Virus record (IMG/VR): IMGVR_UViG_3300045988_163836 | Length of the DNA: 64,000 bases | From: a virus | Reading direction: 5' to 3' (one strand) | Shown here: positions 10,747 to 56,533 of the stretch, in pieces | Layout: each line of letters starts with the position of its first letter | Position numbering within the stretch: the first letter of the stretch is position 1 | Made by a program: the position numbers and the translations under genes | Notes under the pieces: generated by a model | What the model saw: the letters and a program-made list of their open reading frames with translations, nothing else | Databases searched by the model: none | Told to the model about the DNA's origin: nothing

Positions 10747-10802
10747 ATTAACTCCTTTCTCTCCTCAAAAATGAGGAGGAAATTAATCCTCCTCATTTAG
10801 AT

Positions 10803-13800: not shown

Positions 13801-16800
13801 AAGCAACAGAAACTATATCACCTATTTGACTTTTTAAATCTCTTAACTTGGCAGCGTCATCAGATGTAAGATCACTAATGTCTTTACCGCCCATAATATC
13901 AGCCATTTGAGCAAAACATTCTAATAATTGCTATAGCTAATCAGTAGTGAAATGAATGCCTACTTGGCCCATAGCATTAATCCATCCGCACATTTCTTCT
14001 AAAGAACCACTGATAGGAGTTATGGCAGCTAAAGCCTAAGAAGCATCTGCTGTAATTTTACCATTAACTACAAATCCATCGTTCTAAGATAAAAGATTAG
14101 TTATTTCAGTTAATTTAGATTGAGCTTCAGTATATAATGTTGAAAAATCTAATTTTCCCGCAGATTCATTTATTTTTTCGATTAAAGCACTATCTACTTG
14201 AGAAAACATATCTAAGACTTGACCAGCTAAAGCTGCTTCATCATCATTACCCCATAAAAATTTTTCTATTAATGGTTGATTCATCTAATAATCTGATTCA
14301 GAAAAATTAAATAAATCTTTTACTTTTTGTTTTAAATCAGCTTCTACTTCAGCAGTATCTTCACCTTCATCACGCAGCTCTTTATATTTTGTTTTTAATT
14401 CACTAATTTCTTTGGTAGCTTCTTTTATTTCATTATTACGTAAAGCATTATATAAATTATTAATAGCTTTTTGGGCGGCATTAGCATTATCTCCAGCCTA
14501 CTCCATTTCATAATTATACTAATTTAAAGCTTCAGTATTACCTTCAATATCTTGATTTTTAGCAGCCCAACTTACTAAACCTTGCTAGCTAGCCTCATCA
14601 CCTAAATTAAAACCTGTCATTTGATTCATTTCTTTTACTGAATTAGCATCAGTATAAGCATTAGTTCTTAATAAATCAGCATTATATGATCCATCAATAT
14701 TAGCCATATAAGCATCTATTATTCCTTGCATAATAGCAGCCTAAGTAGCTGAATCCTAACGTTTATAGAAGTCTAAATCATAATTACCACTTTCATCGGT
14801 GCCAACTAATTTTGCTATTTCTTCAGGACTGCCAAAAATATCTAAAGCCTATTGTAATAAGGATCCCCCAGAATCATCAGTTAAACCTTTTTGCATTGCC
14901 TCTAATTGAGTATATTCTTGTCCATTAAAAATATATCCACCTTGTTTTATACCGGATCCCCAAGCTTCTTGATGAGCCTCTGCAACGTTATGCTATTCTT
15001 CAGCTCTATCTACTCCAGCCTGAGTTAATGCATTCTTAGCAGCAGTATCAAAATCTTTAACTTTTACATAGGTATCCAGACCAGTCTAAACATAATAATC
15101 TTCAGGATTTAATCCAGCAGCTTTAAAACCTTCAGTGATCTTATCATATTTTTCTTGAGTGATAGAACTACCGACTTCTTGGCCCATCAAGTTAAAAATT
15201 TCAATTAACAAATCTCTAAAAGTAGTAAAATCTTCTATAGGCAATTTATTAGCAGTTTCTTGCATCATATCATAGAAGCCTTTCCAAGCTCCTTCATCAT
15301 CTGACACAACAATACCTAAATCTTCTAGGGTATCAATAAATTCTTCCCAAGTTCCAGAAGACCAATCAAAATCAGCTATTTTATTTAACTAATCAAAAGT
15401 TAAATCTTTTCCTATGGTATTAATCGCTTCAGTAAACGCGGCGACTCCATTTTTACCTGCCACTTTAAATATATCTTCTGCAATCTAAGAAATACGAGAT
15501 TTTAATGAAACACTATATCCTTCAAATTCATCAATTGCTTCTGATATATCATCTTCATCTTCAAGCCCTAATATATATTTAAATGCTTTATTATTATTTA
15601 TATCCTCAATGTTAGTAATCTAGTGAGATGCTTCTTCTACTATGGCTTCACCTAATTCTTTACCGCTGGTTACGCCTAATTCTTTCATCATATTAGACAT
15701 ATATGATTTTACGGTTTCTTGCTATTCAGGTTTTAATAAATTAAAATCTTCGCCAAATAAACTCTATCCAATTAAGTTCTGTAAATCTTCATCTTCAAAA
15801 CCTTTTTCTATATCTTTTTTTAACTATTTAAGCTAATCTTGAGTAAAATTACTTAAATCACCATCATTGCCAAAAAATTCTAAAATACCTTGGCCTACAG
15901 TTCCTTGATTGCTCATACCAGTCTAGAATTTTTGAGCCATAGCATAAGTAGTTTGAAGTTCTTTTCCCATAGCCTACATAGTAGCTATCGCAGTAGCAAC
16001 TTCTGAAAATGATTTAGTTTTTCCATTTTCTAATTGGAATGATCTATTCTAACCTTCACCAATTACAGAATTTTTCTAATCTAATTTATATTCACTATCA
16101 TTTTTATCTATTTTAATCGCTGCTAAATAAGCATCCCATAAATTACGTAAAGCTTGATCTCCTTTACCAACTCCACCAGCATTTTCATCGTGAGTTCCTA
16201 TTTCTCGGTCCTTACCAGTTCCGTCATCCCAACTAATAGTTCCATTCTCATTATAAAAACTATTTTTTATAGCTTCAATATTAGCATCTACCAAAGCAGT
16301 AGTTATTTTAGCATCTTCAGTAGACATAGTATCTAATCCAAGAGCCTATTGGACTGAAGCTTCTTTCGTAACCTATAATGTAGCATCAGTATTTGCTTGT
16401 ATTACTTTTGAGACATTAGATATAGCAGCTTGAACATCATCAGTATTAAATTTATCTGCAATTTTCTAGGCATAATCATTTAAAGTCGTACTGTTATTGA
16501 GAGTTTCAAATCCATTATTCTTTAATGCCTATTCAATAATACTAACTTGTTCTTCCTAACTTTTATTCTATAAATTTTCCTAATTATTTAAAATTAAATC
16601 TGCTATACCTGGCATTACTGAAGTATATTGTCCATTTTTTGTTAATCCTCCAGTTGTACTGCCACTCTAAATATTAAGAACACCCTAAAGATTACTTATT
16701 AAGTCCTATTTAGCTTTTTCAATATTTAAGTCTTCTAAATTGCTTTGTTCATTAGCTAAAGCATATTGCTATTGAAGAATCTATTTATCATAAATAGACT

Positions 16801-19800
16801 ATAATTTATCAACAGCACTTTGGTCTATCCAAATTTCACCAGTATCTTTCTTGCCCCAAGCACCTTCCATATTCTTTAGCTCAGGATAAGTATTTAAAAT
16901 ATTAAGAGCTTCTTCATTAGCTTTAGTTAACTATGCACGCCATTCTTTAGTACCAACAGTACATTCATCTAAAGCAGATTTAACAGAGCTATAACTATCA
17001 AATACTGATTTTAACTATTCAGCTTTATTTTTTGTTTCTTCTAACTAACTTTTAAAACTCTCAACAGCCTATTCAGAACGTTTAATTTGTTCTTCTATAG
17101 TAAAAGACTAAGCTGTATTATATACTTTAACCAATACAGCAATGGCAGCAACTACTGCTCCAATTATTAAAGCATATTTACCCAAAACAAGTAAAGATTT
17201 AGTAAACATTGCATGAGTCGCTGCACCACTAGCTGCCAATTGCTATTCAGCAGTTCCCGCAGAACCAGCAGCTACTCCCAATTCTTTAAGCTTGGCGGTA
17301 TAAGCATCAAGACCAGTTTGCATAATTTTAGCTCTAAATCCAGAGCTATTCTCTATCTTTGTCTTTAAAGCTGCCTATAAGTCAGAACCCTATAAAGACC
17401 CTCCTAAACCAGTCATTATTGATAAAATATTAGTACCTAGTCCCTTCCAATTAGTTCCAATTTCTTTTAATCCACTAGCTAACTAATTTACTCCATTGAT
17501 TAAAGAAGGAATAGCAAAACTTGCCGAAGTAATGCTCTAAGTTAATTTTTCTCCAAAATCTAATTCGCTATTATTTAAAGTATTAAACATTCCTTTTAAA
17601 CTATTGATTCCAATAGCTAATTGAGAAATACCCTAAAAACTAGAAACTAATCCTTGAGAAAAACTATATATAGATCCTTGACTAGCTTTTAATTCTGCGT
17701 TAAAAGCTTCAATAGCACTCTCATATTTTTCAACCGCTCCTTTGTTCTACAAAAGAGCCTCTTTCTCATTTACGTAATCTGTAAGACACTATCTTAAAGC
17801 ATTAGACTAAGCTTTTGTTAATTTTTCTGCTTTAATTTTCTAATTAACATAATTATCAATTTCAAGATTAACGTCTCTTAAATTATTAACTTCAGCTAAT
17901 ATATCTTTTCTAAGAGTACCTTTAGCACCATTACTTAGATTAGAATTGTTACCCTATTGAATTAACTAATTTAATTTACTATATCTTTGATTATTTAAAT
18001 CTAATTGACCAAATTGAGAAATAAAATCTTTAAAAGAACCATTTGAATTAATTTTTAAAGACTTTAAATCTTGCATTGTTTTATCATTATAAAAATTATC
18101 AACAATCTTTTGGCCTTTTTTTAAGTTATTGTCAAAATAAATTACGCCCTTATCTCCACCAAATTTTTTATTATTATCTTCAAAAATTGTATTGCGAGCA
18201 TTACGTAAATTGTTATTACTCTAAGTTTGTTGAGCTTCTATGCTTTTTTTAGATTCTATAGCTATTTGTCCATAAGCCTAAGAAATTTTTAATAATGTCT
18301 ATAATCTTAATTTATCTGTTTCATTTAACTAATTATTTGCTAGCTATAAATCATAAGAAGCCTCTGCAGCTTTAACCATTGTAGTTGTTTCTAATTCAAC
18401 TGAACCCTATTTTGTTAAATCAGGTTTTTCTTCATAAGTTGTAAAGGTCTTTAAAACATTTATCATCTACTGCTTCATAACCGCAGCCTAATTTTCAGCA
18501 GCTCCGCTGTCAATAAACAAATTGGAAGCCATACGCTGCATATTATTTACAATATCAGGACCGAAGCTTTTTAGCATTAAAGTAGAAATAACACTTAATA
18601 CACCAGGCAATCCGCCTAATGAATCAATCAATTTGCTTGTAATATTTAATGTATCACTTAATGTATCATTTAATCCGATAAAAAATTTATCACTAACTAA
18701 TTGCTTATAAATTTCTTCAAGAGAAGCTTGTACTCGCTTTTTAGAAGCTTCCCAACTTTCAGCATAAATATCAGCTTGTTCTTGTAAAGTACCTTCAGAA
18801 TTTTTAGCCACTCCAACTAGCTCTTTAAAATAATCTTTATTCTCCATAAGATTAACTAATTGAGTGTATTGACGAACACCACCAACAGTCTATGCAAGAG
18901 CCACTTGTTCAGCACGACTTAAACTATCCCACTTATTCATCATTTCATCAAGGATAGTATTCATATCTTTTAACTCACCCTATTGATCTTTAATACTAAT
19001 ACCAACTTTTTCAAGGGCTTTAGAATATTTATTTAAATCAGTACCATCTTCAAGAGTTTCTCCAAGAGTCAGACCCTAAATACGTGCAAATAAGGTTTTA
19101 AGGCTATTACCTACTGTATTCGCACTTTCACGTGTTTTGGCAGTTAATGTAGCTAATGCAGATGTAGCATATTCATAACTAAGACCAATAGTATTAGCAA
19201 CAGAAGCGAATTTCTATATACCTTCTGAAATTTCATCAGTACTAGAAGCAGTATATGCACCAAGTTTAGTCATTACATCTGCATAATATTCAAGAGATTT
19301 GCTACCATCATAGAAGTTATTCCAAACAGCAGTTAACTAATCAGATACTTTAGAAGCACTTTCGCCTGCGGCGTTAGCCATTTTAATAGTAACTTCAGTA
19401 CGATCAGCAACTTCTTTATCACTTAAACCCTATTGATAATAAATTAAAGAAGCATTAGTATAATTAGTAGTAGTTGTACTTAATGCTTGAGCAGCCTTAT
19501 TAGCTTTTTCAGCAAACTCAGCCATCTAATCATTACTCTATCCAGTAACTATACGAATATCATTTAATGATCTATTTAAATCTTCTGCATAATAGTAAGC
19601 TTTCTATAAAGAACCCTATACTCCATGCATTAAGTTAGATGAAATTTGCCATTTGGCTGTATTAGCTAATGTCTTTTTAAAATTATCTAATATAGCGTTA
19701 GTTCTTTTTAAAGGAACTTCAGCATTAATAACAGACTATGCTAATGCAACAAATGCTTTATCACCTGTTGGGCCTAGATTCTCTAAGTGTGTAGCAAAAT

Positions 19801-20095
19801 CCTAAAGAGTATAACCACTCTAGCTTAAACTCTTTGAAAATTTTGATAAATCTAAACGCCCAGTATTAACATTAGTCGCCTAATCTAAAGCAATTTTTAA
19901 CTCCTAAACTGCTGCCGAGGCTTCATCTATTTCTTTTTTAGTGGCATTAACATCAAAAAATTTAATATTTTTTGTTGCTATCTAATTCATTAAAGTATCT
20001 AATGAACTTTGTAAATCTCGTAATTGCTATTTAGCTTGACCTGTATCAGCTGTAAATCGCATATTAACATTATAATTAGCACTGTTATTAGCCAT
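10803..20095 (-). CDS. Tail tape measure protein of about 3100 aa. It is heavily TAG-recoded, with many dozens of in-frame TAGs and no internal TAA/TGA in my reading.
   Basis: ATG at about 20093-20095 after AAAGGAG. The frame is continuous to a TAA at about 10803. It is coiled-coil rich and has a poly-Gly (G8) tract encoded at about 13700-13740. Track fragments 11561..11917, 13529..13906, 14084..14284, 15086..15307, 16076..16327 and 18488..18847 are all in this frame. Its position after the chaperone-like gene and before the distal tail genes fits a tape measure protein. Confidence 0.7.
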
Positions 20096-20139
20096 AAAAT
20101 AGCTCCTTTCTCTCATTATAAATTTCTATATATATAAAG

Positions 20140-33147: not shown

Positions 33148-34899
33148 TTAATTCATAAACATCCAATCAGCAGCCCGGAATTTTTTCTTCTTTTTATCTT
33201 CTTCTACTTTTTTTATATAATATAATCCATACTCTAATGCAGAGAATTTATCTTTTTTAATACTTTTATTAGCTTGTTTTAAAATTATATTTAAACCTTC
33301 ATTTTCTTCACGCAGATTCATAATCTCTTCACGCAATGAAGTAGTTAAACTGAATGGTCTTAAATAATCAGATCGCGCTTCTGTGGTCATATTCTAGCCC
33401 ACTTTAGTAGTTAATAATTTCTATTTAGCAGTTCGTTCATCAATTAAAAATTTAATCTTACCAGAATTTAATACTGACTAAGTAATACTATGGGCTTCAG
33501 TATTAATTGGTGCATTAGCTTTCATTAAATATAAAACATCTAATTCTGTACTATTAGTTTTATATTTTTTATATTCTTGAACTGCATCATCCTGAGTTCC
33601 ACCATAAACTCCAAAATCAGGAATTACTTCAGAAGTTTCAGGATTAATCTATGGCTTAACCATAAAATCTACTAAACCAACACCAAGTCCATTAGCATCT
33701 ATTACAATTCTGCGAGCTTTATATTTATAATATAATTTTTTAAGTTTAATAGCCTAATCTTCAAAGTGTGTATCATTCATAGTATAAATATTAACTAAAC
33801 TTTTAATTGGCTCACCATGCGGTTGCGGCGTTACTTTAAATACACAAACAACAGTATCGCATCCTTTACGGCCTACGTCAACACTTAATATATAATAAGA
33901 TAATTTACTTGAACGGCCAGAAGCTTCGTATTCAGGCTAATTCAGTATTCTATTTCTATTAAATATTTCTGCATTAAAGAAAGCGTCTTCAACAGTACCA
34001 GACCAAATTGATTCATATTCACGTTCGAAAGAAGCTTCATTATAAGTTCCTTCATTTTTTTGGTCAGTAATAAATGTTTTCTGTTGTAATCCAACAGCAA
34101 CAGGAGTTCGCCAAGTTCCACCTAATACCATACATCTATCAGGCTATGTAATCATACGAACTAATAAACCAATTAATCTATCATAAGGATAAGTATTTTT
34201 ATAGCCAGCAGTAGTAATATAAATCTATGATTTATTTACCGCTTCTTCTTCATGAGTTGTACCATCCTTAGCTCTACGAGGAATAGCCATAACTGGTATA
34301 ATGACTTCGCGTAAAATCTAATCATCAATACCTACACATTCTTCCATTAGACCACCATGACGACGCTGACCACGAGTACTTTCTCTCGCAGCTAAATTAT
34401 CAAGGACAGAACCATTCTTAAATACATAACGTACTTTATCTTTACTCTCTTGGCTCTTACCTCGGCCCCAATCAATTTCGCGTTTAAAACTTGGTATTAA
34501 ATCACAAATTTCATTAACTTTATCATGTAGAATACTCGCGCCTTGTTCCTTACCACCCGAAGTAACAAATAAATGAACACCAGGATAAAGAATACATCTA
34601 ACCATTAATGCCATAACTGATAAGAATGATTTAGAATAGGCACGAGGGAAAACTGCATAAACGTACTGATAGCGCATTACACATCTTAAAAAAACACGCT
34701 AATAGAAGAAAAATTTAAATTCTCCTTCTTTCTATTCTGTACGTGTTCCTCGTACTAAAAAATCAACAAATAAATCTGGATATTCGCGCCAAAAGGCAGT
34801 ATATTTACGAATGACTGGCATTACGGCATTAATACGTTCTTCAGAAAGACCTATTTTTTTCCTACTTGTAGATAGGTCAAGTAAATCTTGTAACGCCAT
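33148..34899 (-). CDS. terL: Terminase large subunit of about 583 aa (TAG-recoded).
   Basis: ATG at 34897-34899. The N-terminal ATPase-region fragment is track 34318..34677. The C-terminal nuclease-like region has 'YILSVDVGRKGCDT', 'RIVIDANGLGVG' and 'EREYESIWSG' (tracks 33937..34131 and 33148..33390). About 9 in-frame TAGs. Ends at a TAA at 33148. Confidence 0.75.
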
Positions 34900-36131: not shown

Positions 36132-36818
36132 TTAGGATTTCATTTTTTCTTTACGAGAACTATTTCGGCATTTTTTGCATATACTATAAAATCCATCTTT
36201 ACTTGTTTTATTATAGGAAAAATATTTATTGTGAGCCAATTTAATTTGCCCACATCTACTGCATTTTTTATACTTACCTTTTTCTTGAGTTGTATAATAC
36301 CATTCTAAATATTTATCAACAGCTTTATCAGCAATAAGCTTTGGTATTTTATTGCGGAATAAACTTGATATATATTCTAAGCTGTGAGTAATATTAAATT
36401 CTTCTTGTAAAATTTTTTGAATCTCTATATTTTGTAATCCATCAATTTTACATTCTACAATGCGCATTAACATAGGATAATCAGCCAAGGCTTCATCGCA
36501 AATATTTTCAAAATCATAAATAAGATACCAAGTATCATCTTCAAAACGATCCCAACTATCTTCTTTTAATCGAGAATAATTACATAAGATACAAGAGCAA
36601 ATTTCAGGATTCATCAATGAGATTCCTTCTGGAATTGGATATCCATCATCATCAAATACTTTTACGTCTTCATCTAATTTAATTTTATACTTAGATCGTG
36701 TAAGCTTTACTGGTACTATTGGTTTTCGATAAGCATTTTTAATAATATATTGGTCTTTGCGCATTTCTATTAATGCCTTTTTTATAGTGAAAGCATCTTT
36801 ACCACTTACTACTTTCAT
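36132..36818 (-). CDS. Zinc-ribbon protein of 228 aa, a candidate late-gene regulator. It has no TAG and is readable in the standard code.
   Basis: Intact track ORF with a GGGAAG RBS before the ATG at 36816-36818. It carries a C-terminal CxxC...CxxC and an internal CxC..C. It is the first long gene of the minus-strand operon and contains no TAG in 228 codons. Confidence 0.45.
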   Translation of the reverse strand: MKVVSGKDAFTIKKALIEMRKDQYIIKNAYRKPIVPVKLTRSKYKIKLDEDVKVFDDDGYPIPEGISLMNPEICSCILCNYSRLKEDSWDRFEDDTWYLIYDFENICDEALADYPMLMRIVECKIDGLQNIEIQKILQEEFNITHSLEYISSLFRNKIPKLIADKAVDKYLEWYYTTQEKGKYKKCSRCGQIKLAHNKYFSYNKTSKDGFYSICKKCRNSSRKEKMKS

Positions 36819-36905
36819 TTTTGCTTCCCAAGTTGTAATAGCGTCTTTTAATTGTTTTAAGCTAGGAATTTCTTCTAAATCTTTTTTTGTAATTGTAACT
36901 TTTGG

Positions 36906-37190
36906 CTAAAATATCATATTTTTATCACTATTAATTAAATTATATATACCATCTTCACCATTCTCTAACTGGGAAACAAGTCCTTCGAAAGAAGTTTCAC
37001 GTTTATTAACTGTCATTAATCTATTATCAGTTAATATTTTCTTTTCTTTTTTTTCTTGTTTCTCCATACATAGAATTAAATAATCTGCGAGGATTTCTAA
37101 ATACTTTTCATTAGGATTTGGATTTTCCTCTAAAATTTTTTTTACTAATTCATTTCGTTCTTCAGGAGTTTCAAGAGTATAATCTAATTT
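36906..37190 (-). CDS. Small protein of about 94 aa with a TTG start after GGAGG. It terminates at TAG, assuming the standard code.
   Basis: Track ORF 36906..37253. RBS GGAGG with 8 nt of spacing to a TTG at about 37188-37190. It ends at the TAG at 36906-36908. If TAG were sense it would fuse in frame with 36132..36818. Confidence 0.35.
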   Translation of the reverse strand, partial: KLDYTLETPEERNELVKKILEENPNPNEKYLEILADYLILCMEKQEKKEKKILTDNRLMTVNKRETSFEGLVSQLENGEDGIYNLINSDKNMIF

Positions 37191-38313: not shown

Positions 38314-38347
38314 AATGGGTATCGAGTAATTAAGGAATAAAATTAAA

Positions 38348-38378
38348 GCGGGAAAATATTTTCCCGCTTATTTTTTTT
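38348..38378 (+). terminator. Rho-independent terminator.
   Basis: gcgggaaaatattttcccgc followed by a T-run. Confidence 0.6.
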
Positions 38379-38656
38379 TATAAAAATTGTTTTCCAAAAT
38401 TGAAATGATTATCGTTTTCCGAAATTGAAAATGAGTTTAGATTATTGTCCCGTTTTTTGAAATTGAAATTGAGTTTAGAAATTATTTTGCCAGGAAAGAC
38501 TTTATTACATTAAATTGAAAAAGTTTTTCACGAAACACTGCCCCCCCACTTCACTTGACTAAAGTGTTAAAGTCTATTGTCTTACTTTACTTGAGTGAAG
38601 TGAGTTAGATACGACTAACCCCCAAAAAAAATATTTCGATTTTTGAAAAAAAATAC

Positions 38657-43043: not shown

Positions 43044-43361
43044 TTTCCATTTGAATTTCCTCCCATATCTTGGGAGGAAATTCTATTTTGAAAATTATAA
43101 AAAAAAATAATATAATTTTTATATAAAAAAAATAATTTTTATTTCTGTTTCAATTCTATAATTTTCCAGTCAAAAAATCAAATGCGGCAAATTTGGCAAT
43201 CCCATAATTTGGAAGGGGAATTTGAGCCAGCCGCGATCCAACGCCGCGGCTGGAATTTCGCGAGTTAAAGTGCTAACGTAAAAAAGTTTTCCAAATCCTT
43301 CCAGCCCAGCCCTTGGAAAATTTTCCCAAAATGTTTGTGTAATTTGACGAATATTTTATGC

Positions 43362-43390
43362 TTGACTTCTGGTATGCCCTGTGCTATAAT
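43362..43390 (+). promoter_or_regulatory. Early promoter (TTGACT-17-TATAAT).
   Basis: ttgacttctggtatgccctgtgctataat, preceded by a GC hairpin terminator at about 43230-43262. Confidence 0.6.
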
Positions 43391-43411
43391 AAGGATACAA
43401 AAGGAAAGGAA

Positions 43412-43804
43412 ATGATAAAAATGAAAATTTACATGGCTGGAGCGTTCTTCCGCCCTGAGACAAAATCAAGAATTGATTCATATGCGGCAGGTTTCCGGCG
43501 GCTTGGGTATGATGTATTTGTTCCGCAAGAACATACTGTCCCGAATGCTTGGGATATGTCGCAGGAAGATTGGGCAAGGGAAGTTTTCAAAATGGATGTT
43601 GCCGCAATTCAAGAATGTGATATTCTATTTGCTGTATATGATGGTCTATACTCTGATTCTGGAACAGCTTGGGAAATCGGGTATGCTTATGCCCATGGGA
43701 AAAATATCCAAATCAGTGTAAATAATGGTGTAAAAGATATGTCAATTATGCCATTCGCAAGTGCTTGGGCTATTGAAAACTATAAAAATATCAAATTAGT
43801 TTGA
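43412..43804 (+). CDS. Nucleoside 2-deoxyribosyltransferase-family protein (NDT / DNPH1-like), about 130 aa.
   Basis: 'MKIYMAGAFF...' together with 'DSGTAWEIGYAYAHGK' matches the family-defining motifs of the NDT fold. RBS AAAGGAAAGGAA. Confidence 0.6.
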   Translation: MIKMKIYMAGAFFRPETKSRIDSYAAGFRRLGYDVFVPQEHTVPNAWDMSQEDWAREVFKMDVAAIQECDILFAVYDGLYSDSGTAWEIGYAYAHGKNIQISVNNGVKDMSIMPFASAWAIENYKNIKLV

Positions 43805-52259: not shown

Positions 52260-52880
52260 ATGAACAAATATGAATTAGCAAAATATATTAATACAACAGT
52301 TGGAATGGTAGAAACCAATTTTCCCTTGCTCTGCTCTAAAAATTTAGCTAAAGGGTATTTAATTACAAAAATTGGTAAAGGTGAAACGGCTGATTATACT
52401 ATTCAAGAAGTAGAACCATAGATATTAGATAAAAAATTTTTTTCTAAAAAACGAGAACTTGATAATTATTCTCATTTATCTGAAGAAGAATTAAAAAATG
52501 AAAAATGGATAACTACTTATTGTTCTAACTTGTACGAAGTATCAGATTTAGGAAGGGTTAGAAAAAAATATGATAAAAAAATTTTATAGGGAACTATAAT
52601 AGATGGATATTAGTATGTAGAATTAGATTATCATAGATATGGAATGAATAGAATTGTATTACAATCTTGGCACCCTAGCCCTGATTTCCAAAATTTGACA
52701 GTAGACCATATTGATGGAAAAAGAGGGAATAATAGGTTATCAAATTTAAGATGGGGAACTAATAAAGAGAATACTGCTTGGATGTTAATGAATAGGAAAG
52801 AAATAACAAAGGAAACAACTCGATTGATAAATTAGTATGGGTATGATGAAGTATTAAAAATACTTCAATTAATTAAATAA
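52260..52880 (+). mobile_element. HNH homing endonuclease gene of about 206 aa. It is intact only if four in-frame TAGs are read as sense. It sits in an AT-rich island.
   Basis: Perfect RBS AAAGGAGGTAAAAATT then ATG. 'YEVSDLGRVRKK' (NUMOD4-like) and 'VDHIDGKRGNNRLSNLRWGTNKEN' (HNH motif). Track ORF 52644..52835 is the C-terminal piece. In-frame TAGs lie at about 52419, 52611, 52632 and 52836. With the standard code only a 53-aa stub is made. Confidence 0.6.
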
Positions 52881-53078: not shown

Positions 53079-53474
53079 ATGTATGATTTTTATGATCGTC
53101 TGATGAAGGGTGAATCCGCAGAGGATATTGCCAAGAGCATCACTGAGGAACTGAATAAGGCACAGGCCAAGAGAACAGAAGAGTTGAAGGCTCAGGCTGA
53201 AAAGTCCAAGAGAGATCAGACAATGGCCGCGGATGCACAGGCTATCTGCACTGGCCTGGTGAAGTTTGCTAAGGATTATTATGGTTATGACATTGAGGTC
53301 AAGCCGGAAGACCTGATGAAGGTTTTTGATATGGCTGATAAGATTGGTCGTGCTATTGAAGACCTTGGTAAGACGGTTGAGAAGCCTGCTGAGAAAGTAA
53401 AGGCTAAGGTATACAAGGTCAATGGCTCTGCTGATGAAGTCATTGATAAGTTCCTTAATATGATGGGGTGGTAA
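53079..53474 (+). CDS. Hypothetical protein, 131 aa (standard code).
   Basis: Track ORF with RBS AAAGAGG. A terminator follows at 53477-53512 (aagggcttatgccctt plus a T-run). Confidence 0.55.
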   Translation: MYDFYDRLMKGESAEDIAKSITEELNKAQAKRTEELKAQAEKSKRDQTMAADAQAICTGLVKFAKDYYGYDIEVKPEDLMKVFDMADKIGRAIEDLGKTVEKPAEKVKAKVYKVNGSADEVIDKFLNMMGW

Positions 53475-53838
53475 GAGAAGGGCTTATGCCCTTTTCTTAT
53501 TTTTTTATTTTGGCTGGAAAATTTTGGAAAGTCAAATTTGATTTTTATAAAAAAATATGATATAATATTAAAAAAAGATATAATTGCATTAGGGTGATGA
53601 ATAATTGATGTCGGTCGATATATGGAGAATAGGGGTACCACTGGTGCAGTAGGGGCACACCCACTCCCTAATTTAATACAATTTATATCAATTTTATAAC
53701 AATCTTTTCTCAAATTATTATAATTCATAAATGATTCTATATTAACTAATATTAATTTTAAATTAAATTTATATTAAATTTTTATAATACCTTCTTTATA
53801 ATTATATCTCTTGTAGGCTAATATACAATTAGCCTACT

Positions 53839-54450
53839 TTATTTATATCTAAATGGCTATAATCTACCTGCTATGTTCCCACAAGGTTTATATAATAAAA
53901 TTAACGCAAACTCTATAGTTTTTAAATCAGCAGATGTTATATTTCTATCACATAATAAATCCTCTCCTTTTATAATTGGTTTAAATTCAATATTATCTCT
54001 CTACTCATTTAATAGTTTATATACATATAAACTATTATTATGATTTTTAATATTTCTTTTATGTTCATTCCATCTTTTATTAAAATCAACAGTACTACCT
54101 ATATAAATTAACTATCCATTCCTATATATACCATATACTCCACCATCACATACCTATGATACATTTTTTTTAGACTATCGTTCAAGTAATTTTCGTCTTT
54201 CTTCCTACTATCTTGCAACCATAGCATCAAATTCATCTTTGGTTCCAAACCAATTATAATATTTCTATTTATATGTCCAATAAGGTTTAGTTAATTTTTT
54301 CTAATCATCTACACATATTTCTTTATAATTATCTGGAACTATCATAGCTATATATTCTCTATCTAACCAATCATTATATTTACTAAATGATGATAATGGT
54401 TCTAATGTTCTATAAATATTTAACAAATTCTCACGATTCTATAATTTCAT
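53839..54450 (-). mobile_element. GIY-YIG homing endonuclease gene of about 204 aa. It is intact only if about 9 in-frame TAGs are read as sense. It sits in an AT-rich island.
   Basis: Hand translation gives '...GGVYGIYRNG(Q)LIYIGSTVDFNKRWNEHKRNI...LYVYKLLNE...', the GIY-(10)-YIG..R..H..E module. There is no TAA/TGA until the TAA at 53839-53841. A hairpin terminator (gtaggctaat...tagcctac) lies at about 53796-53822. Confidence 0.55.
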
Positions 54451-54544
54451 ATTAAATTCATAATTTTTCCTTTCAATTTTTGATTTCATTTTTCAATTCA
54501 TTTCTTTGCAACCACAAGGCCAACACCGCCATTCAAGAAAATAC

Positions 54545-54845
54545 CCTGTTTTGTCCTATTGTGGACCGAATGGGACACAATAGGACAAATATGTTATGTT
54601 CGATGTCCTGAATAGGACAAATCGGACAGGACATTTTCTTTCTTCAGCTTTTGTCGCATTTGTCGCATTTGTCCTAAACTAAGTCATTTTGCTAATTTTT
54701 TTAGATTTTTATTTAGTTATGTCGCATTTGTCCTATCGACATTTTAATACTTTCATTTAAAAATAGGACAAAACTCATTTGTCCCATTCAAGACAAATGT
54801 CTGCTTTTGTCTCATTTGTCGCATTTGTCCTATAGGTCCCATTTA
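54545..54845. repeat. Iteron/palindrome array. It is a candidate replication origin, partition site or multi-site operator.
   Basis: Palindrome 1: TTGTCCTATTGTG (54551-54563) with CACAATAGGACAA (54576-54588). Palindrome 2: GATGTCCTG (54602-54610) with CAGGACAT (54627-54634). Direct repeats: TTGTCGCATTTGTCGCATTTGTCCTA (54651-54677), GTCGCATTTGTCCTA (54721-54735), TTTGTCGCATTTGTCCTATAGG (about 54816-54835). Extra TAGGACAAA half-sites are present. Confidence 0.6.
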
Positions 54846-54870
54846 ATATCTTCTATGCTAATTCAAATAT

Positions 54871-55296
54871 CTACGGAGCTTTATAATCTACTCTGTCTAA
54901 TGCTCTGGTACTAATCTTCTAACCAAAAATTTTAAAATAAGCATCAACTGCTTCCTATTTAGTAGGAACTCCATTTTTATCTTTAACAGCTTTTACTATC
55001 GCTTTTTCTACATCTTCTTTATAAATTCTCTACTATGCTCCACCAGCTGCTCCTGCTTCTGCTTTCTATTTACTAACCTCTTTAGACTTATCAATAGTAA
55101 GTTTCATAGACTATAACAGCATCATAATAACTCCATAATCTTTATCATTCTCATCAGGCTCAATACCATACAATCCATAGTTAGTTAATGCACTATATAA
55201 TTTATATTTTAATTCTACATCTTCATTCTATTCAATAGTTTCTCTCATATTAGCCCAGAAGGTAAATTTTTCTTTATTCGGCTTTTCAACTGCCAT
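54871..55296 (-). CDS. Hypothetical protein of about 141 aa (TAG-recoded; five internal TAGs). The lower boundary is uncertain.
   Basis: GGAGGTAATTATTT then the ATG at 55294-55296. If the TAG at 54871-54873 is also read through, the frame stays open into the iteron array as far as a TGA near 54787. Confidence 0.4.
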
Positions 55297-55302
55297 AAAT
55301 AA

Positions 55303-55485
55303 TTACCTCCTTTGAGCTTCAACAAAATCCCTCATAAAATCATCATCAACCTTAAATATCCAGCAATTATATTCAGGATATTTGGGATTGGGCATAGTCT
55401 ATATAGGGAAATGACCATTTTCCACTAGCTTTTCCATAACAGCTAATGAATAAATAATCATATTTTTATTTTGTTCTTTGTTCAC
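55303..55485 (-). CDS. Small hypothetical protein of about 60 aa (one in-frame TAG). The start is uncertain (GTG at 55485 or ATG at 55461).
   Basis: Hand translation: VNKEQNKNMIIYSLAVMEKLVENGHFPI(Q)TMPNPKYPEYNCWIFKVDDDFMRDFVEAQRR, ending in TAA. Confidence 0.3.
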
Positions 55486-55492
55486 TTTGTAT

Positions 55493-55644
55493 TACTTCTC
55501 CTTATCAATATATTCTTTAATGGCTTTTCTAATTAATTGCGAAACACTCATATCATTTTCTTTACAGAATTCATCAATACGTGCCTTTTCTTCATCCTTA
55601 ACACGAGTTGCAATATTATGATAGCCTTCACGTTTACTTGGCAT
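55493..55644 (-). CDS. Ribbon-helix-helix (CopG/Arc/MetJ-type) DNA-binding protein, 50 aa.
   Basis: GGAGAATATAT then ATG. 'YHNIATRVKDEEKARIDEFCKENDMSVSQLIRKAIKEYI' fits the RHH beta-alpha-alpha pattern. There is no TAG. Confidence 0.55.
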
Positions 55645-55859
55645 ATATATTCTCCTTTTCTTTTATTAATCTACTATATATAAAAATATGAATAATATTC
55701 TTAACCGCGGTGGCCCAAAAAATTTTAAGTAATTTATAACAAGTTTAATTGATATAAGTTGAAATAAAAATATACCTATTGGTTTTATAAATAGTGGAAA
55801 AATATAAAAAAATTTGATAAAATATATATAAGATAAAAGATAAGAAAGGAAAATCTTAA

Positions 55860-56327
55860 ATGCCAAATTATCGTGAACAAAATGGCGAAGTTGGTAGCTA
55901 CAACAATCTTAAAGTCTGGGTCCTTAATGGTGAAGAGTTCCAGAAGAGGCTACTCACCAAGGGCGGACTTAGTGCTACTACTATCTACTGCCTTAAAGAT
56001 TATGACCCCTATCATAAATTACTGCCCGACTGCATGTATGCCTATATGATTAACCCCAATGATAAAGATAATCTTTACTGCCTTGGCACTATGGGCAATT
56101 ATGGAAAAGTGAATTTCAAGAAAAATATTGCAGCATGTGAAAAATTCGCACTCGCCCCTAAGCCTACTCCTAAGCCCGCATTTGAAATAGATACCACTAA
56201 TTATGGCGACGCACCTACTCTTACAACTATTGACAGCATTCTGGCCGATATCCAAAAGTGGAATACACAAATTAATTATGCTGACTATACTAAAACAGTG
56301 GATAAATATCTGGAGGCTCTTGTATGA
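55860..56327 (+). CDS. Hypothetical protein, 155 aa.
   Basis: Track ORF with GAAAGGAAAATCTTAA then ATG. A very AT-rich conserved promoter-like block lies upstream. Confidence 0.55.
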   Translation: MPNYREQNGEVGSYNNLKVWVLNGEEFQKRLLTKGGLSATTIYCLKDYDPYHKLLPDCMYAYMINPNDKDNLYCLGTMGNYGKVNFKKNIAACEKFALAPKPTPKPAFEIDTTNYGDAPTLTTIDSILADIQKWNTQINYADYTKTVDKYLEALV

Positions 56328-56533
56328 AAAAGTTTATGTAGTTTGCCCTAGATGATAATAATATATTTTTCTATGTCGTTAATGATATTGTAAACGTAAA
56401 ATTCTATACTCAAAATGAATTAAATAATGAATTAACAATGGAACTTACAACTAAATCTAACGGTATTGAAACATTTACATTCGATAACATAAGAGATTAT
56501 CAAGACGCTATAGATACATTTAATGACTTATGA
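56324..56533 (+). CDS. Small hypothetical protein of about 69 aa with one in-frame TAG (at the 6th codon).
   Basis: ATGA overlap with the upstream stop. The frame runs MKKFM(TAG)FALDDNNIFFYVVNDIVNVKFYTQNELNNELTMELTTKSNGIETFTFDNIRDYQDAIDTFNDL to a TGA that overlaps the next ATG. Confidence 0.3.

What the first reader, a model, noticed from the sequence alone, without database searches (positions are those of the whole stretch)
54545..54845. Dense iteron and palindrome array next to an RHH regulator and recoded genes
About 300 bp contain two perfect palindromes built on TTGTCCTA. They are TTGTCCTATTGTG with CACAATAGGACAA, and GATGTCCTG with CAGGACAT. There are also at least four direct copies of (T)TTGTCGCATTTGTCCTA, two of them tandem, plus isolated TAGGACAAA half-sites.

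The array lies between the GIY-YIG gene and a recoded gene (54871..55296). That gene's frame, if its terminal TAG is read through, continues into the iterons. The array is about 650 bp from a ribbon-helix-helix gene (55493..55644). The architecture looks like a plasmid or phage origin with iterons, a partition site (parS-like), or a multi-operator regulatory region bound by the RHH protein.
Basis: seen in the sequence. Interest (0 to 1): 0.7.

Follow-up and report, generated by a model that had tools for sequence, protein, structure and literature searches.

The report
Candidate phage replication origin iterons
A real, very dense cluster of about 20 short protein-binding repeats follows a gene for an uncharacterised DNA-binding protein in a large gut phage, and it is most likely that phage's iteron-type replication origin with its own initiator, a known kind of element built around an unstudied protein family.

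Summary
Twenty TGTC-core units lie in 54552-54830, against 1.2 per 300 bp elsewhere. All 7 exact TTTGTCCTA copies in the 64 kb are in this stretch.

The array follows, and overlaps the last ~19 codons of, a TAG-recoded gene (54775-55296, minus strand). Its product has an N-terminal DUF6291 domain, a C-terminal helix-turn-helix-like domain and a disordered tail. The operon RHH - small ORF - DUF6291 - array recurs in at least 10 metagenomic phage lineages with one shared core layout: 3-4 direct units, an 18-23 nt purine-rich spacer, 2-3 inverted units, then a palindrome.

The unit sequence changes together with the C-terminal half of the DUF6291 protein. The RHH and small proteins stay essentially identical (one conservative RHH change), and the RHH promoter region has no units.

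Elsewhere, DUF6291 proteins sit directly before dnaB, occupy the lambda-O position after cII, or are fused to DnaD-like or replication-initiator domains. Three of their genes contain internal 11-bp-period iterons.

Best reading (about 0.5): an iteron origin bound by the adjacent DUF6291-HTH initiator, of the lambda ori/O or SPP1 oriL/gp38 type. Evidence against: GC skew does not mark the site, and the gene carries 9 in-frame TAGs, which places it in the late, recoded class. Binding by the RHH protein and a parS role are not supported.

The parts
55492..55644 (-). First gene of the operon: a 50-aa ribbon-helix-helix protein with no in-frame TAG. It is probably the Cop-like repressor of the operon, not the array binder.
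   Evidence: Pfam RHH_1 E = 1.8e-7 (31.3 bits, cut-off 20.5) and DUF6290. Differs at one C-terminal residue (I46M) between the window and L005 although the iteron unit differs. No TGTC or GACA core in its upstream region 55645-55860.
55303..55485 (-). Conserved small ORF of 60 aa with a GTG start and 1 in-frame TAG. Function unknown. It always lies between the RHH and DUF6291 genes.
   Evidence: Translation. A syntenic 59-70 aa ORF is present in L001-L013 and L021-L023. No Pfam or PHROG hit. Identical between the window and L005.
54775..55296 (-). Gene for the DUF6291-HTH protein, 173 aa with 9 in-frame TAG codons read as Gln. Proposed iteron-binding initiator. Layout: N-terminal domain residues 8-79, Gly/Ala linker, C-terminal helical HTH-like domain 93-151, disordered tail 158-173 encoded by iterons.
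54764..54833 (.). Block A of the array: three tandem 9-bp units (54806-54832) plus inverted units forming a hairpin across the stop codon. Positions 54778-54833 are also the last ~19 codons of the DUF6291 gene.
   Evidence: Terminator-like hairpin at 54776-54799. The window and P0001 have a 3-aa (ATN) insertion relative to other homologues, which equals one extra 9-bp unit.
54740..54763 (.). AT-rich spacer 1, 87.5% A+T. Candidate easily melted segment.
   Evidence: the window average is 67.4% A+T.
54718..54741 (.). Block B: two tandem units (TGTCGCATTTGTCCTA) plus one inverted TGTCGAT.
   Evidence: A two-unit block is present at the same place in L001, L005, L006, L009 and L010.
54677..54719 (.). 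AT-rich spacer 2, 83.7% A+T. Candidate DNA-unwinding element.
   Evidence: An AT-rich spacer lies at the same place in the close relatives.
54650..54676 (.). Block C: three contiguous 9-bp units, TTTGTCGCA TTTGTCGCA TTTGTCCTA. This is the left arm of the universal core.
   Evidence: TRF: 2.7 copies, 100% match. Also.
54634..54651 (.). 18-nt strand-asymmetric spacer, AAAGCTGAAGAAAGAAAA on the operon sense strand (89% purine), onto which direct and inverted units converge. It is the most conserved non-unit feature of the array.
   Evidence: Present in all 10 lineages examined, 18-23 nt long and 81-89% purine, always beginning AAGC.
54602..54633 (.). Inverted units forming the right arm of the core, including the 8-bp palindrome ATGTCCTG / CAGGACAT.
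54550..54589 (.). Distal palindrome with 14-bp perfect arms and a 12-nt loop. Both arms are built from units.
   Evidence: I7. Fold -14.4 kcal/mol, z = -7.2. Arms change on both sides in relatives: L001 has TTTGTCCCATTGTG / CACAATGGGACAAA, and L006 and L009 have TTGTCCTATTATG / CATAATAGGACAA.
54440..54549 (-). Conserved segment between the array and the body of the GIY-YIG gene, covering that gene's putative promoter (TTGAAA-16-TAATAT, 54476-54449) and its 5' end.
   Evidence: 83-85% nt identity to L005 where flanks are ~50%. Promoter-like match. No stable fold, z = +0.75.
53839..54489 (-). GIY-YIG endonuclease-like gene, 216 aa with 10 in-frame TAG. It is a variable passenger downstream of the array, not a conserved partner.
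   Evidence: Pfam GIY-YIG E = 2e-6. Replaced by unrelated ORFs in L011, L013, L021 and L023, which keep the array.

Best explanation
The array is the cis-acting site of a small replicator module that is transcribed against its neighbours. The module runs RHH repressor, small protein, DUF6291-HTH protein, then the iteron array.

Proposed mechanism:
- The C-terminal helix-turn-helix domain of the DUF6291 protein binds the 9-bp units (core GACA, consensus ATTTGTC[C/G][C/T]A on the + strand) as monomers. This lets it occupy tandem sets of 2-3 units as well as inverted pairs.
- About 20 bound copies form a nucleoprotein complex around a core in which three direct and three inverted units converge on an 18-nt purine/pyrimidine-asymmetric spacer, flanked by two AT-rich spacers.
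- The complex distorts or melts DNA there. Through the conserved N-terminal DUF6291 domain and the flexible tail, it recruits the helicase and replisome. This resembles lambda O at ori-lambda or SPP1 gp38 at oriL, whose origins also lie inside or beside the initiator gene.
- The RHH protein most likely represses the operon promoter at 55645-55860.
- Because the initiator gene has 9 in-frame TAG codons, it can be made only once TAG is read as Gln.

What is shown: the array, its conservation, the covariation of the units with the C-terminal half of the protein, and the replication-module context and fusions of the DUF6291 family.

What is inferred: binding itself, melting, helicase recruitment and origin activity.
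For: 1. Site density and uniqueness: 20 cores in 280 bp, found only here in 64 kb.

2. The operon and array architecture is conserved in 10 lineages, down to about 30-37% protein identity. All share the core layout of 3-4 direct units, GACAWAAGC, a purine spacer of 18-23 nt, 2-3 inverted units and a unit palindrome. In each 20-kb locus tested the array is the single density peak.

3. Specificity covariation.
- Window versus L005: nucleotide identity is 93-100% over the RHH gene, the small ORF and the N-terminal half of DUF6291, but ~50-60% over the C-terminal half plus the array. The unit changes from GACAAAT (period 9) to GGGACAT (period 8-9).
- Window versus L006: the GIY-YIG gene is 90-100% identical and the RHH and small proteins nearly identical, while the HTH half is only 70-78% identical. 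GCGACA becomes CGGACA in parallel in blocks A, B and C.

4. The palindrome arms change in a compensatory way.

5. The C-terminal domain is HTH-like.

6. The DUF6291 family is tied to replication.
- In a Bacteroides finegoldii element the DUF6291 gene is directly upstream of, and overlaps, dnaB.
- In Nitratiruptor phage NrS-2 it follows repressor, cro and CII, the lambda-O position, and a separate TerS gene lies downstream.
- In Riemerella phage GRNRAP2 it lies in the ERF/YqaJ module and is fused to Phg_2220_C.
- P0047 and P0052 carry C-terminal domains matching DnaD-like helicase loader, replication initiation and primosomal PHROGs.

7. Those three DUF6291 genes each contain internal iterons of 11-bp period. 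Eleven is not a multiple of 3, so the repeats are selected at the DNA level. This parallels the origin lying inside the lambda O gene and SPP1 gene 38 (PMC6316719).

8. Two spacers of 84-88% A+T lie inside the array.
Against: - No experiment exists. Binding and origin activity are inferred.
- GC skew does not mark the site. The cumulative minimum in the window is near 37 kb, and skew follows gene orientation.
- The window holds no recognisable helicase, primase or polymerase gene next to the module.
- The initiator gene is among the most TAG-dense genes (9 of 173 codons), while the flanking + strand genes have none. This puts it in the recoded class, presumed to be late, which is unexpected for a primary initiator.
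- The GACA core is shared by all lineages, so a conserved protein (the RHH or the small ORF) recognising only the core cannot be strictly excluded.
- The 9-bp contiguous spacing differs from the ~11 or 22-bp phasing of classical iterons.
- There are no DnaA boxes nearby.
Confidence: 0.5

Rival explanations
1. The array is a regulatory binding site for the DUF6291-HTH protein acting as a transcription factor. It would serve as an autoregulatory sink, a roadblock or terminator at the end of its own operon, or a controller of the downstream gene and of head-on transcription from the flanking + strand genes. It would have no role in replication.
For: - The covariation evidence that supports binding by this protein applies equally here.
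- The array lies between the operon and a promoter-like site for the next gene.
- The island is always counter-oriented to its neighbours.
- The gene belongs to the recoded class.
Against: - Twenty sites over 280 bp, placed downstream of the gene rather than at a promoter, is atypical for operators.
- The downstream gene is not conserved (GIY-YIG, an 84-aa ORF, a 148-aa ORF) while the array is.
- The DUF6291 family context and fusions point to replication.
Confidence: 0.17
2. The array is a multi-operator or nucleoprotein site bound by the RHH protein, alone or with the small ORF, in the way omega, MetJ or CopG proteins polymerise on tandem 7-9-bp repeats. This was one of the first reader's readings.
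For: - RHH dimers typically bind contiguous 7-9-bp direct or inverted repeats (general knowledge of omega heptads and MetJ metboxes).
- The RHH gene is always in the operon.
- The GACA core is invariant across lineages, so an invariant protein could read it.
Against: - The RHH protein differs at one C-terminal residue and the small ORF is identical between the window and L005, while the unit and its period differ.
- In distant lineages the predicted DNA-facing beta-strand residues differ (N-A-R, Q-T-R, T-S-I) while the GACA core stays the same.
- The 215-bp region upstream of the RHH gene, where such repressors normally act, has no TGTC or GACA. It carries GATAAAA heptads instead.
Confidence: 0.12
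3. The array is a packaging recognition site (pac). The DUF6291-HTH protein would be a small-terminase-like recognition protein that binds repeats on both sides of a cleavage site, the purine spacer, as at P1 pac or SPP1 pacL-pacC-pacR.
For: - The layout of converging repeats around a conserved spacer resembles known pac sites.
- pac sites often lie in or next to the gene of their recognition protein (general knowledge).
- Expression in the recoded, presumably late, class would fit packaging.
Against: - The module is about 20 kb from TerL (33148-34899) and portal, in a different transcription block.
- Nitratiruptor phage NrS-2 has a separately annotated small terminase in addition to its DUF6291 protein.
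- DUF6291 proteins sit next to dnaB, ERF/YqaJ or cII and are fused to DnaD-like domains.
- No contig ends at the array.
Confidence: 0.1
4. The array is a partition centromere (parS, parC or tubC-like) for a plasmid-like prophage state, bound by an adaptor encoded in the operon.
For: Blocks of tandem 7-12-bp repeats bound by RHH or HTH adaptors are typical of type II and type III centromeres (general knowledge).
Against: - No ParA, ParM or TubZ-type NTPase lies in the operon or among its neighbours in any of the loci.
- tblastn with the subfamily member P0021 found nothing in PLSDB. The generic DUF6291 query P0054 found two records, only one of which matched the DUF6291 region: a prophage-like Bacteroides element.
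Confidence: 0.04

Closest known systems
Phage lambda ori-lambda with O protein, and the P22 gene 18 type
   Same: - Several initiator-binding repeats lie inside or beside the initiator's own gene.
- The initiator has two domains joined by a flexible linker.
- An AT-rich, strand-asymmetric segment lies next to the repeats.
- In NrS-2 the DUF6291 gene occupies the O position after cII.
   Different: - There is no sequence or Pfam relationship to O.
- The units here are 9 bp, contiguous and in both orientations (about 20 sites), not four ~19-bp inverted-repeat iterons.
- The DNA-binding domain is predicted to be C-terminal, not N-terminal.
- Most of the array lies downstream of the stop codon.
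Bacillus phage SPP1 oriL/oriR with gp38 (PMC6316719)
   Same: - It is a Firmicute siphophage.
- oriL consists of direct repeats plus an AT-rich DUE positioned within the gene of the origin-binding protein.
- A late function is known for initiator binding: fork stalling at oriR triggers the switch to concatemeric replication. That offers a precedent for a late-acting origin-binding protein.
   Different: - gp38 is not a DUF6291 protein.
- No second copy of the array exists in the 64-kb window.
- No helicase-loader or helicase genes follow the initiator here.
cop-rep-ori cassettes of Gram-positive plasmids (pMV158 CopG-RepB; Inc18 pAMbeta1, pIP501 and pSM19035, whose origin lies immediately downstream of rep). 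This comparison rests on my own knowledge.
   Same: - The gene order is a small repressor (RHH in pMV158), then the initiator, then the origin directly downstream of the initiator gene and transcribed through from the rep promoter.
- The RHH here gives sub-threshold hits to ORF56/CopG-type copy-control proteins and RepB-RCR_reg.
   Different: - Those hits fall below the curated cut-offs.
- The initiator families are unrelated.
- Inc18 origins have a single Rep site rather than 20 iterons.
- No plasmid carrying this subfamily was found in PLSDB with the one subfamily member used as query (P0021).
Arrays bound by RHH proteins (omega heptads of pSM19035; MetJ metboxes)
   Same: Short (7-9 bp), contiguous units used in direct and inverted orientation, and an RHH gene nearby.
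   Different: The RHH does not covary with the units, and the units are absent from its own promoter region.
pac sites such as P1 pac and SPP1 pac
   Same: Repeated short motifs lie on both sides of a conserved central spacer, near the gene of a DNA-binding protein.
   Different: The module is far from the terminase genes, and the family context is replication rather than packaging.

Membership tests
Iteron-type replication origin (lambda ori / SPP1 oriL kind) | A cluster of repeated binding sites, unique or nearly unique in the genome | tested here: met
   20 cores in 280 bp and none clustered elsewhere in the 64 kb. Only the window was searched, not the whole genome.
Iteron-type replication origin (lambda ori / SPP1 oriL kind) | Located within or next to the gene of the cognate initiator, with sites and protein co-varying | tested here: met
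   The array overlaps the 3' end of the DUF6291-HTH gene. The units covary with its C-terminal half in two independent comparisons. That the protein is an initiator is inferred from family context.
Iteron-type replication origin (lambda ori / SPP1 oriL kind) | Adjacent AT-rich DNA-unwinding element | tested here: inconclusive
   Two spacers of 84-88% A+T and an 18-nt purine-asymmetric spacer are present. However, the genome is 67% A+T overall and the distant lineage L011 lacks the AT spacers.
Iteron-type replication origin (lambda ori / SPP1 oriL kind) | GC-skew or strand-bias inflection at the site | tested here: not met
   The cumulative GC-skew minimum is near 37 kb. Skew at 53.8-55.6 kb simply mirrors the minus-strand operon. 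This test is weak, because skew follows transcription and only 64 kb is available.
Iteron-type replication origin (lambda ori / SPP1 oriL kind) | Initiator binding and autonomous or initiator-dependent replication | not testable with these tools
   Requires EMSA or footprinting and a replication assay.
Pfam DUF6291 (PF19808) | HMM match above the gathering threshold | tested here: met
   34.6 bits against a cut-off of 27.2, residues 11-88. 40 of 45 family representatives match.
RHH operator array (omega, CopG or MetJ type) | Sites overlap the promoter that the RHH protein regulates | tested here: not met
   The array is downstream of the operon's genes. No TGTC or GACA occurs in 55645-55860.
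RHH operator array (omega, CopG or MetJ type) | Site sequence tracks RHH specificity | tested here: not met
   The RHH is essentially identical in the window and L005 (one C-terminal I-to-M change, beta-strand unchanged) while the units differ. The beta-strand differs in L011 and L013 while the core is unchanged.
Partition centromere (parS, parC or tubC) | Cognate NTPase (ParA, ParM or TubZ) in the same operon or locus | tested here: not met
   None appears among the local genes or in the syntenic loci with precomputed Pfam annotation.
pac site with small terminase | Adjacent to or within the terminase genes; recognition protein is the phage's TerS | tested here: not met
   TerL is at 33148-34899, about 20 kb away. 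A DUF6291-bearing phage has a separate TerS. Cleavage itself cannot be tested here.
Host DnaA-box cluster or Spo0A 0A-box cluster | Matches to TTATCCACA or TGTCGAA | tested here: not met
   No DnaA box with up to 1 mismatch lies within 1.4 kb of the array. None of the 20 units reads TGTCGAA.

The most novel reading that the evidence does not exclude
The module is an origin gated by the genetic code. Only the TAG-free RHH repressor can be translated under the standard code. The DUF6291-HTH initiator (9 TAGs, the first at codon 23) appears only after the phage switches TAG to Gln. The array would then act late, as a second origin or as a fork barrier that switches replication to concatemer production, as proposed for gp38 at SPP1 oriR. 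In addition, the iterons double as the coding sequence for the initiator's disordered recruitment tail, which ends in F-N-F in most relatives and in an SSB-like DDDDIPF in one.
Probability: 0.15. Interest if true: 0.75.

Novelty: new member of a known kind. Interest (0 to 1): 0.5.

Why it matters
- If correct, this gives the uncharacterised DUF6291 family (PF19808; PHROGs 15768, 16304 and 19415, all 'unknown function') a function as phage replication initiators or origin-binding proteins.
- It pinpoints a candidate origin in a clade of large (about 134-214 kb), uncultured, TAG-recoded gut phages whose TerL is related to those of large Firmicute phages (Geobacillus E3, SPbeta YonF type).
- It offers an easily testable protein-DNA pair. 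Natural specificity variants exist (GACAAAT versus GGGACAT units with divergent HTH domains on otherwise ~98% identical backgrounds), which are ready-made swap experiments.
- It raises the question of why a replication-type module belongs to the recoded gene class, which bears on models of how stop-codon recoding times phage gene expression.

Tried and rejected
Searches that found nothing:
- blastn of 53500-56500 and tblastn of the DUF6291 protein against INPHARED phages gave no match.
- A profile search of PDB sequences gave no match.
- NCBIfam gave no informative hit for the DUF6291 or small proteins.
- Rfam at gathering thresholds and a tRNA scan of the window found nothing.
- A literature search for 'DUF6291' returned 0 papers.
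- PLSDB returned no plasmid carrying the HTH subfamily.
- Contexts of P0054 and P0036 in metagenome contigs were too short to be informative.

Ideas considered and rejected:
- DnaA boxes: none near the array.
- Spo0A 0A boxes (TGTCGAA): the TGTC half is shared, but no unit has CGAA.
- A small ORF starting at the ATG after the purine spacer: 33 aa in the window, 15 aa in L006, no ATG in L001, and the frame is not conserved.
- A structured RNA or DNA element in the conserved 54480-54550 segment: fold z = +0.75.
- GIY-YIG as the array's binder or partner: it is absent from L011, L013, L021 and L023, which keep the array, and it is 90-100% identical between the window and L006 although their units differ.
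- A second binding cluster in the window: the next-densest regions, near 49.4 and 39.0 kb, hold scattered chance hits in coding DNA.

Technical notes:
The 95%-identical P0001 was used instead.
- One DNA alignment used wrong locus coordinates and was discarded. It was replaced by a direct palindrome extraction.
Full report
**1. Observation.**

- A 14-nt-arm perfect palindrome lies at 54550-54563 and 54576-54589 (I7). It folds at -14.4 kcal/mol, z = -7.2.
- An 8-nt palindrome, ATGTCCTG / CAGGACAT, lies at 54603-54610 and 54627-54634.
- Three exact copies of TGTCGCATTTGTCCTA are present. With up to 3 mismatches there are 6 matches in all, two of them in overlapping tandem register, against 0.47 expected, with 0 of 100 shuffles reaching that number.
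- All seven exact TTTGTCCTA 9-mers of the 64-kb window lie in 54550-54832.
- TRF reports 9-bp tandem units.
- Counting the minimal core gives 20 TGTC/GACA cores in 54552-54830. Background is 1.2 +/- 1.6 per 300 bp, and no second cluster exists.

The consensus unit on the + strand is (c)aTTTGTC[C/G][C/T]A(t).

**2. Genomic setting.**

The window is a phage.
- Terminase large subunit (33148-34899), portal, capsid-type proteins and a sigma-like factor lie on the minus strand.
- TerL is closest to those of large Firmicute siphophages: Geobacillus E3 at 47%, 134-141-kb Enterococcus phages, Brevibacillus Sundance 'YonF', and the human-gut phage Phass-1.

The late minus-strand genes are full of in-frame TAG.
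- One ORF of 3107 aa has 108 of them.
- TAG aligns with Gln at conserved TerL positions.
- All + strand genes have none.
- No tRNA gene lies in the window.

The array sits inside a short minus-strand island flanked on both sides by + strand genes. The island consists of:
- RHH, 55492-55644;
- a small ORF, 55303-55485;
- a 173-aa gene, 54775-55296, with 9 TAG codons;
- the array;
- GIY-YIG, 53839-54489, with 10 TAG codons.

The gene ends at the TGA at 54775, so block A of the array encodes its last ~19 residues.

**3. The neighbouring protein.**
- It matches Pfam DUF6291 above threshold in residues 11-88.
- An AF2 model of the 95%-identical P0001 shows an N-terminal helical domain (8-79), a Gly/Ala linker, a C-terminal four-helix domain (93-151, pLDDT ~80) and a disordered tail (158-173).
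- Other family members hit HTH_23, HTH_7 and HTH_38 directly.
- The family is small: 49 clusters at 50% identity among 1.8 billion representatives.

**4. Conservation of the array.**

The operon RHH - small ORF - DUF6291 - array recurs in every relative for which enough flanking DNA was held (L001-L003, L005-L011, L013, L021-L023). In every locus with enough flanking DNA to judge, it is counter-oriented to the flanking genes.

All ten lineages share one architecture:
- direct units overlapping or following the 3' end of the gene;
- a core of 3-4 direct units;
- 'GACAWAAGC' followed by an 18-23-nt spacer that is 81-89% purine on the sense strand;
- 2-3 inverted units;
- a palindrome made of units.

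In the close relatives (window, L001, L005, L006, L009, L010) there are also a two-unit block and AT-rich spacers; L011 lacks the AT spacers.

In distant relatives much of the array lies inside the coding region. It is translated into repetitive tails such as GQNGDKTNVP. The window and P0001 differ from other homologues by a 3-aa insertion, which equals one 9-bp unit.

The downstream gene is not conserved: GIY-YIG here and unrelated ORFs elsewhere.

**5. Which protein reads the units?**

Window versus L005.
- Nucleotide identity is 93-100% across the promoter, the RHH gene, the small ORF and the N-terminal half of the DUF6291 gene.
- It falls to ~50-60% across the C-terminal half of that gene, the array and GIY-YIG.
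- It returns to 93-100% beyond that.
- The small protein is identical and the RHH differs only by one conservative C-terminal change (I46M).
- The unit changes from GACAAAT at period 9 to (T)GGGACAT at period 8-9.

Window versus L006.
- GIY-YIG, the RHH and the small ORF are nearly identical.
- The HTH half is only 70-78% identical.
- GCGACA becomes CGGACA in parallel in three separate blocks.

Other points.
- The palindrome arms change on both sides in relatives.
- The RHH promoter region, 55645-55860, holds no unit core.
- In distant lineages the predicted DNA-facing beta-strand residues of the RHH differ while the GACA core persists.

The C-terminal HTH-like domain of the DUF6291 protein is therefore the best candidate reader. 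The invariant core means that a contribution from the RHH or the small protein cannot be fully excluded.

**6. What the module does.**

No characterised DUF6291 member exists. Context and domain fusions point to replication initiation.
- In a Bacteroides finegoldii element the DUF6291 gene directly precedes and overlaps dnaB. It follows a small AbrB-type regulator.
- In Nitratiruptor phage NrS-2 it follows repressor, cro and CII. This is the lambda-O position. A separate small terminase is annotated downstream.
- In Riemerella phage GRNRAP2 it lies in the ERF/YqaJ recombination-replication block and carries a Phg_2220_C domain.
- P0047 and P0052 pair the DUF6291 domain with C-terminal domains matching DnaD-like helicase loader, replication initiation protein and primosomal protein PHROGs.
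- The C-terminal motif of P0054 matches annotated replication initiation proteins and DUF4373 proteins.
- Each of the three annotated DUF6291 genes contains internal iterons of 11-bp period plus ATGTAA-type repeats just after the DUF6291 domain. Eleven is not a multiple of three, so these are DNA-level repeats. This is the arrangement known from ori-lambda inside gene O and SPP1 oriL inside gene 38 (PMC6316719).

Within the window array, two spacers are 84-88% A+T.

**7. Best explanation and its limits.**

I conclude, at about 0.5, that the array is an iteron-type origin served by the adjacent DUF6291-HTH initiator. The RHH would act as a Cop-like repressor of the operon.

My confidence in the sub-claims differs:
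- a conserved, selected protein-binding array: about 0.9;
- the DUF6291-HTH protein as the binder: about 0.65.

Evidence against the origin reading:
- GC skew gives no signal at the site. Its cumulative minimum is near 37 kb, though skew here tracks transcription.
- No replisome genes flank the module in this phage.
- The 9-bp contiguous spacing is unlike classical 11 or 22-bp iteron phasing.
- The gene's 9 TAG codons place it in the recoded class, which is presumably late.

The last point suggests the more novel reading: a code-gated, late-acting origin or fork barrier.

Rivals, each weighed in its own section, are a purely regulatory array for the same protein, an RHH-bound array, a pac site and a centromere.

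**8. Comparison and novelty.**

Functionally the module resembles lambda ori/O, SPP1 oriL/gp38 and the plasmid cop-rep-ori cassettes. It belongs to none of their protein families.

It is best filed as a new member of a known kind: an iteron origin beside its initiator gene. The unstudied initiator family, the converging-unit core around a polypurine spacer, the translation of iterons into the initiator's tail, and the recoded status are the features worth experimental follow-up.

Noticed in passing
window 1-64000 (gene census): The genetic code is split by strand. Every + strand gene (37.5-53.5 kb and 55.9-64 kb) has 0 in-frame TAG, while the minus-strand late genes (313-37067) have many, including 108 in the 3107-aa ORF at 10793-20116. 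TAG aligns with Gln at conserved TerL positions of Geobacillus E3 and Enterococcus H1. The window has no tRNA gene, so the suppressor must lie elsewhere.
   Followed up: partly
window 52260-52880 (+) and 53839-54489 (-): Two homing-endonuclease-like genes, HNH/NUMOD4 and GIY-YIG, carry 4 and 10 in-frame TAGs although they sit among TAG-free genes. In the GIY-YIG protein the catalytic domain is C-terminal, with an unassigned ~115-aa N-terminal region.
   Followed up: partly
window 53720-55100 versus L005: A mosaic cassette. The HTH half of the DUF6291 gene, the array and GIY-YIG are ~50-60% identical to L005, while both flanks are 93-100% identical. A conserved island of 83-85% lies at 54440-54560. 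This looks like module exchange, possibly co-conversion driven by the endonuclease.
   Followed up: partly
window 55645-55860: The divergent promoter region is 100% identical in L005 and L006. It contains GATAAAA heptads (55816-55843, TRF) and an isolated GC-rich AACCGCGGTGGCCC at about 55704-55718. These are candidate operators for the RHH protein.
   Followed up: no
window 38336-38479: A palindromic, terminator-like element (38336-38379) is followed by three direct repeats, TTTTCCRAAATTGAAA(ATGAGTTTAGA), in an ORF-poor stretch close to the cumulative GC-skew minimum and the strand switch at ~37.4 kb.
   Followed up: no
L016 5231-5345; L017 5224-5380; L018 6149-6244: DUF6291 genes of Riemerella phage GRNRAP2, Nitratiruptor phage NrS-2 and a Bacteroides finegoldii element each contain (A)AACC repeats of 11-bp period followed by ATGTAA or ATGTAG repeats, directly after the DUF6291 domain. 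This is a shared iteron signature inside the gene across unrelated hosts.
   Followed up: partly
Proteins P0019-P0032, P0038, P0058 (family alignment A4): Most HTH-subfamily members end in a conserved aromatic tip (FNF, FDF or FTF) after a repetitive, iteron-encoded tail. P0058 ends in DDDDIPF, like the C-terminal tip of bacterial SSB, which hints at a protein-recruitment motif. The window protein instead ends in LEWDK.
   Followed up: no
window 53470-53501 and 53813-53837: Two terminator-like hairpins mark the convergent junction between the + strand gene block and the minus-strand island.
   Followed up: no
window 36132-37067 (-) and 43358-43804 (+): A phage sigma-factor-like gene (phrog_5767) lies at the head of the late block, and a nucleoside 2-deoxyribosyltransferase gene lies in the + strand block. 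The latter suggests possible nucleotide or DNA-base modification.
   Followed up: no
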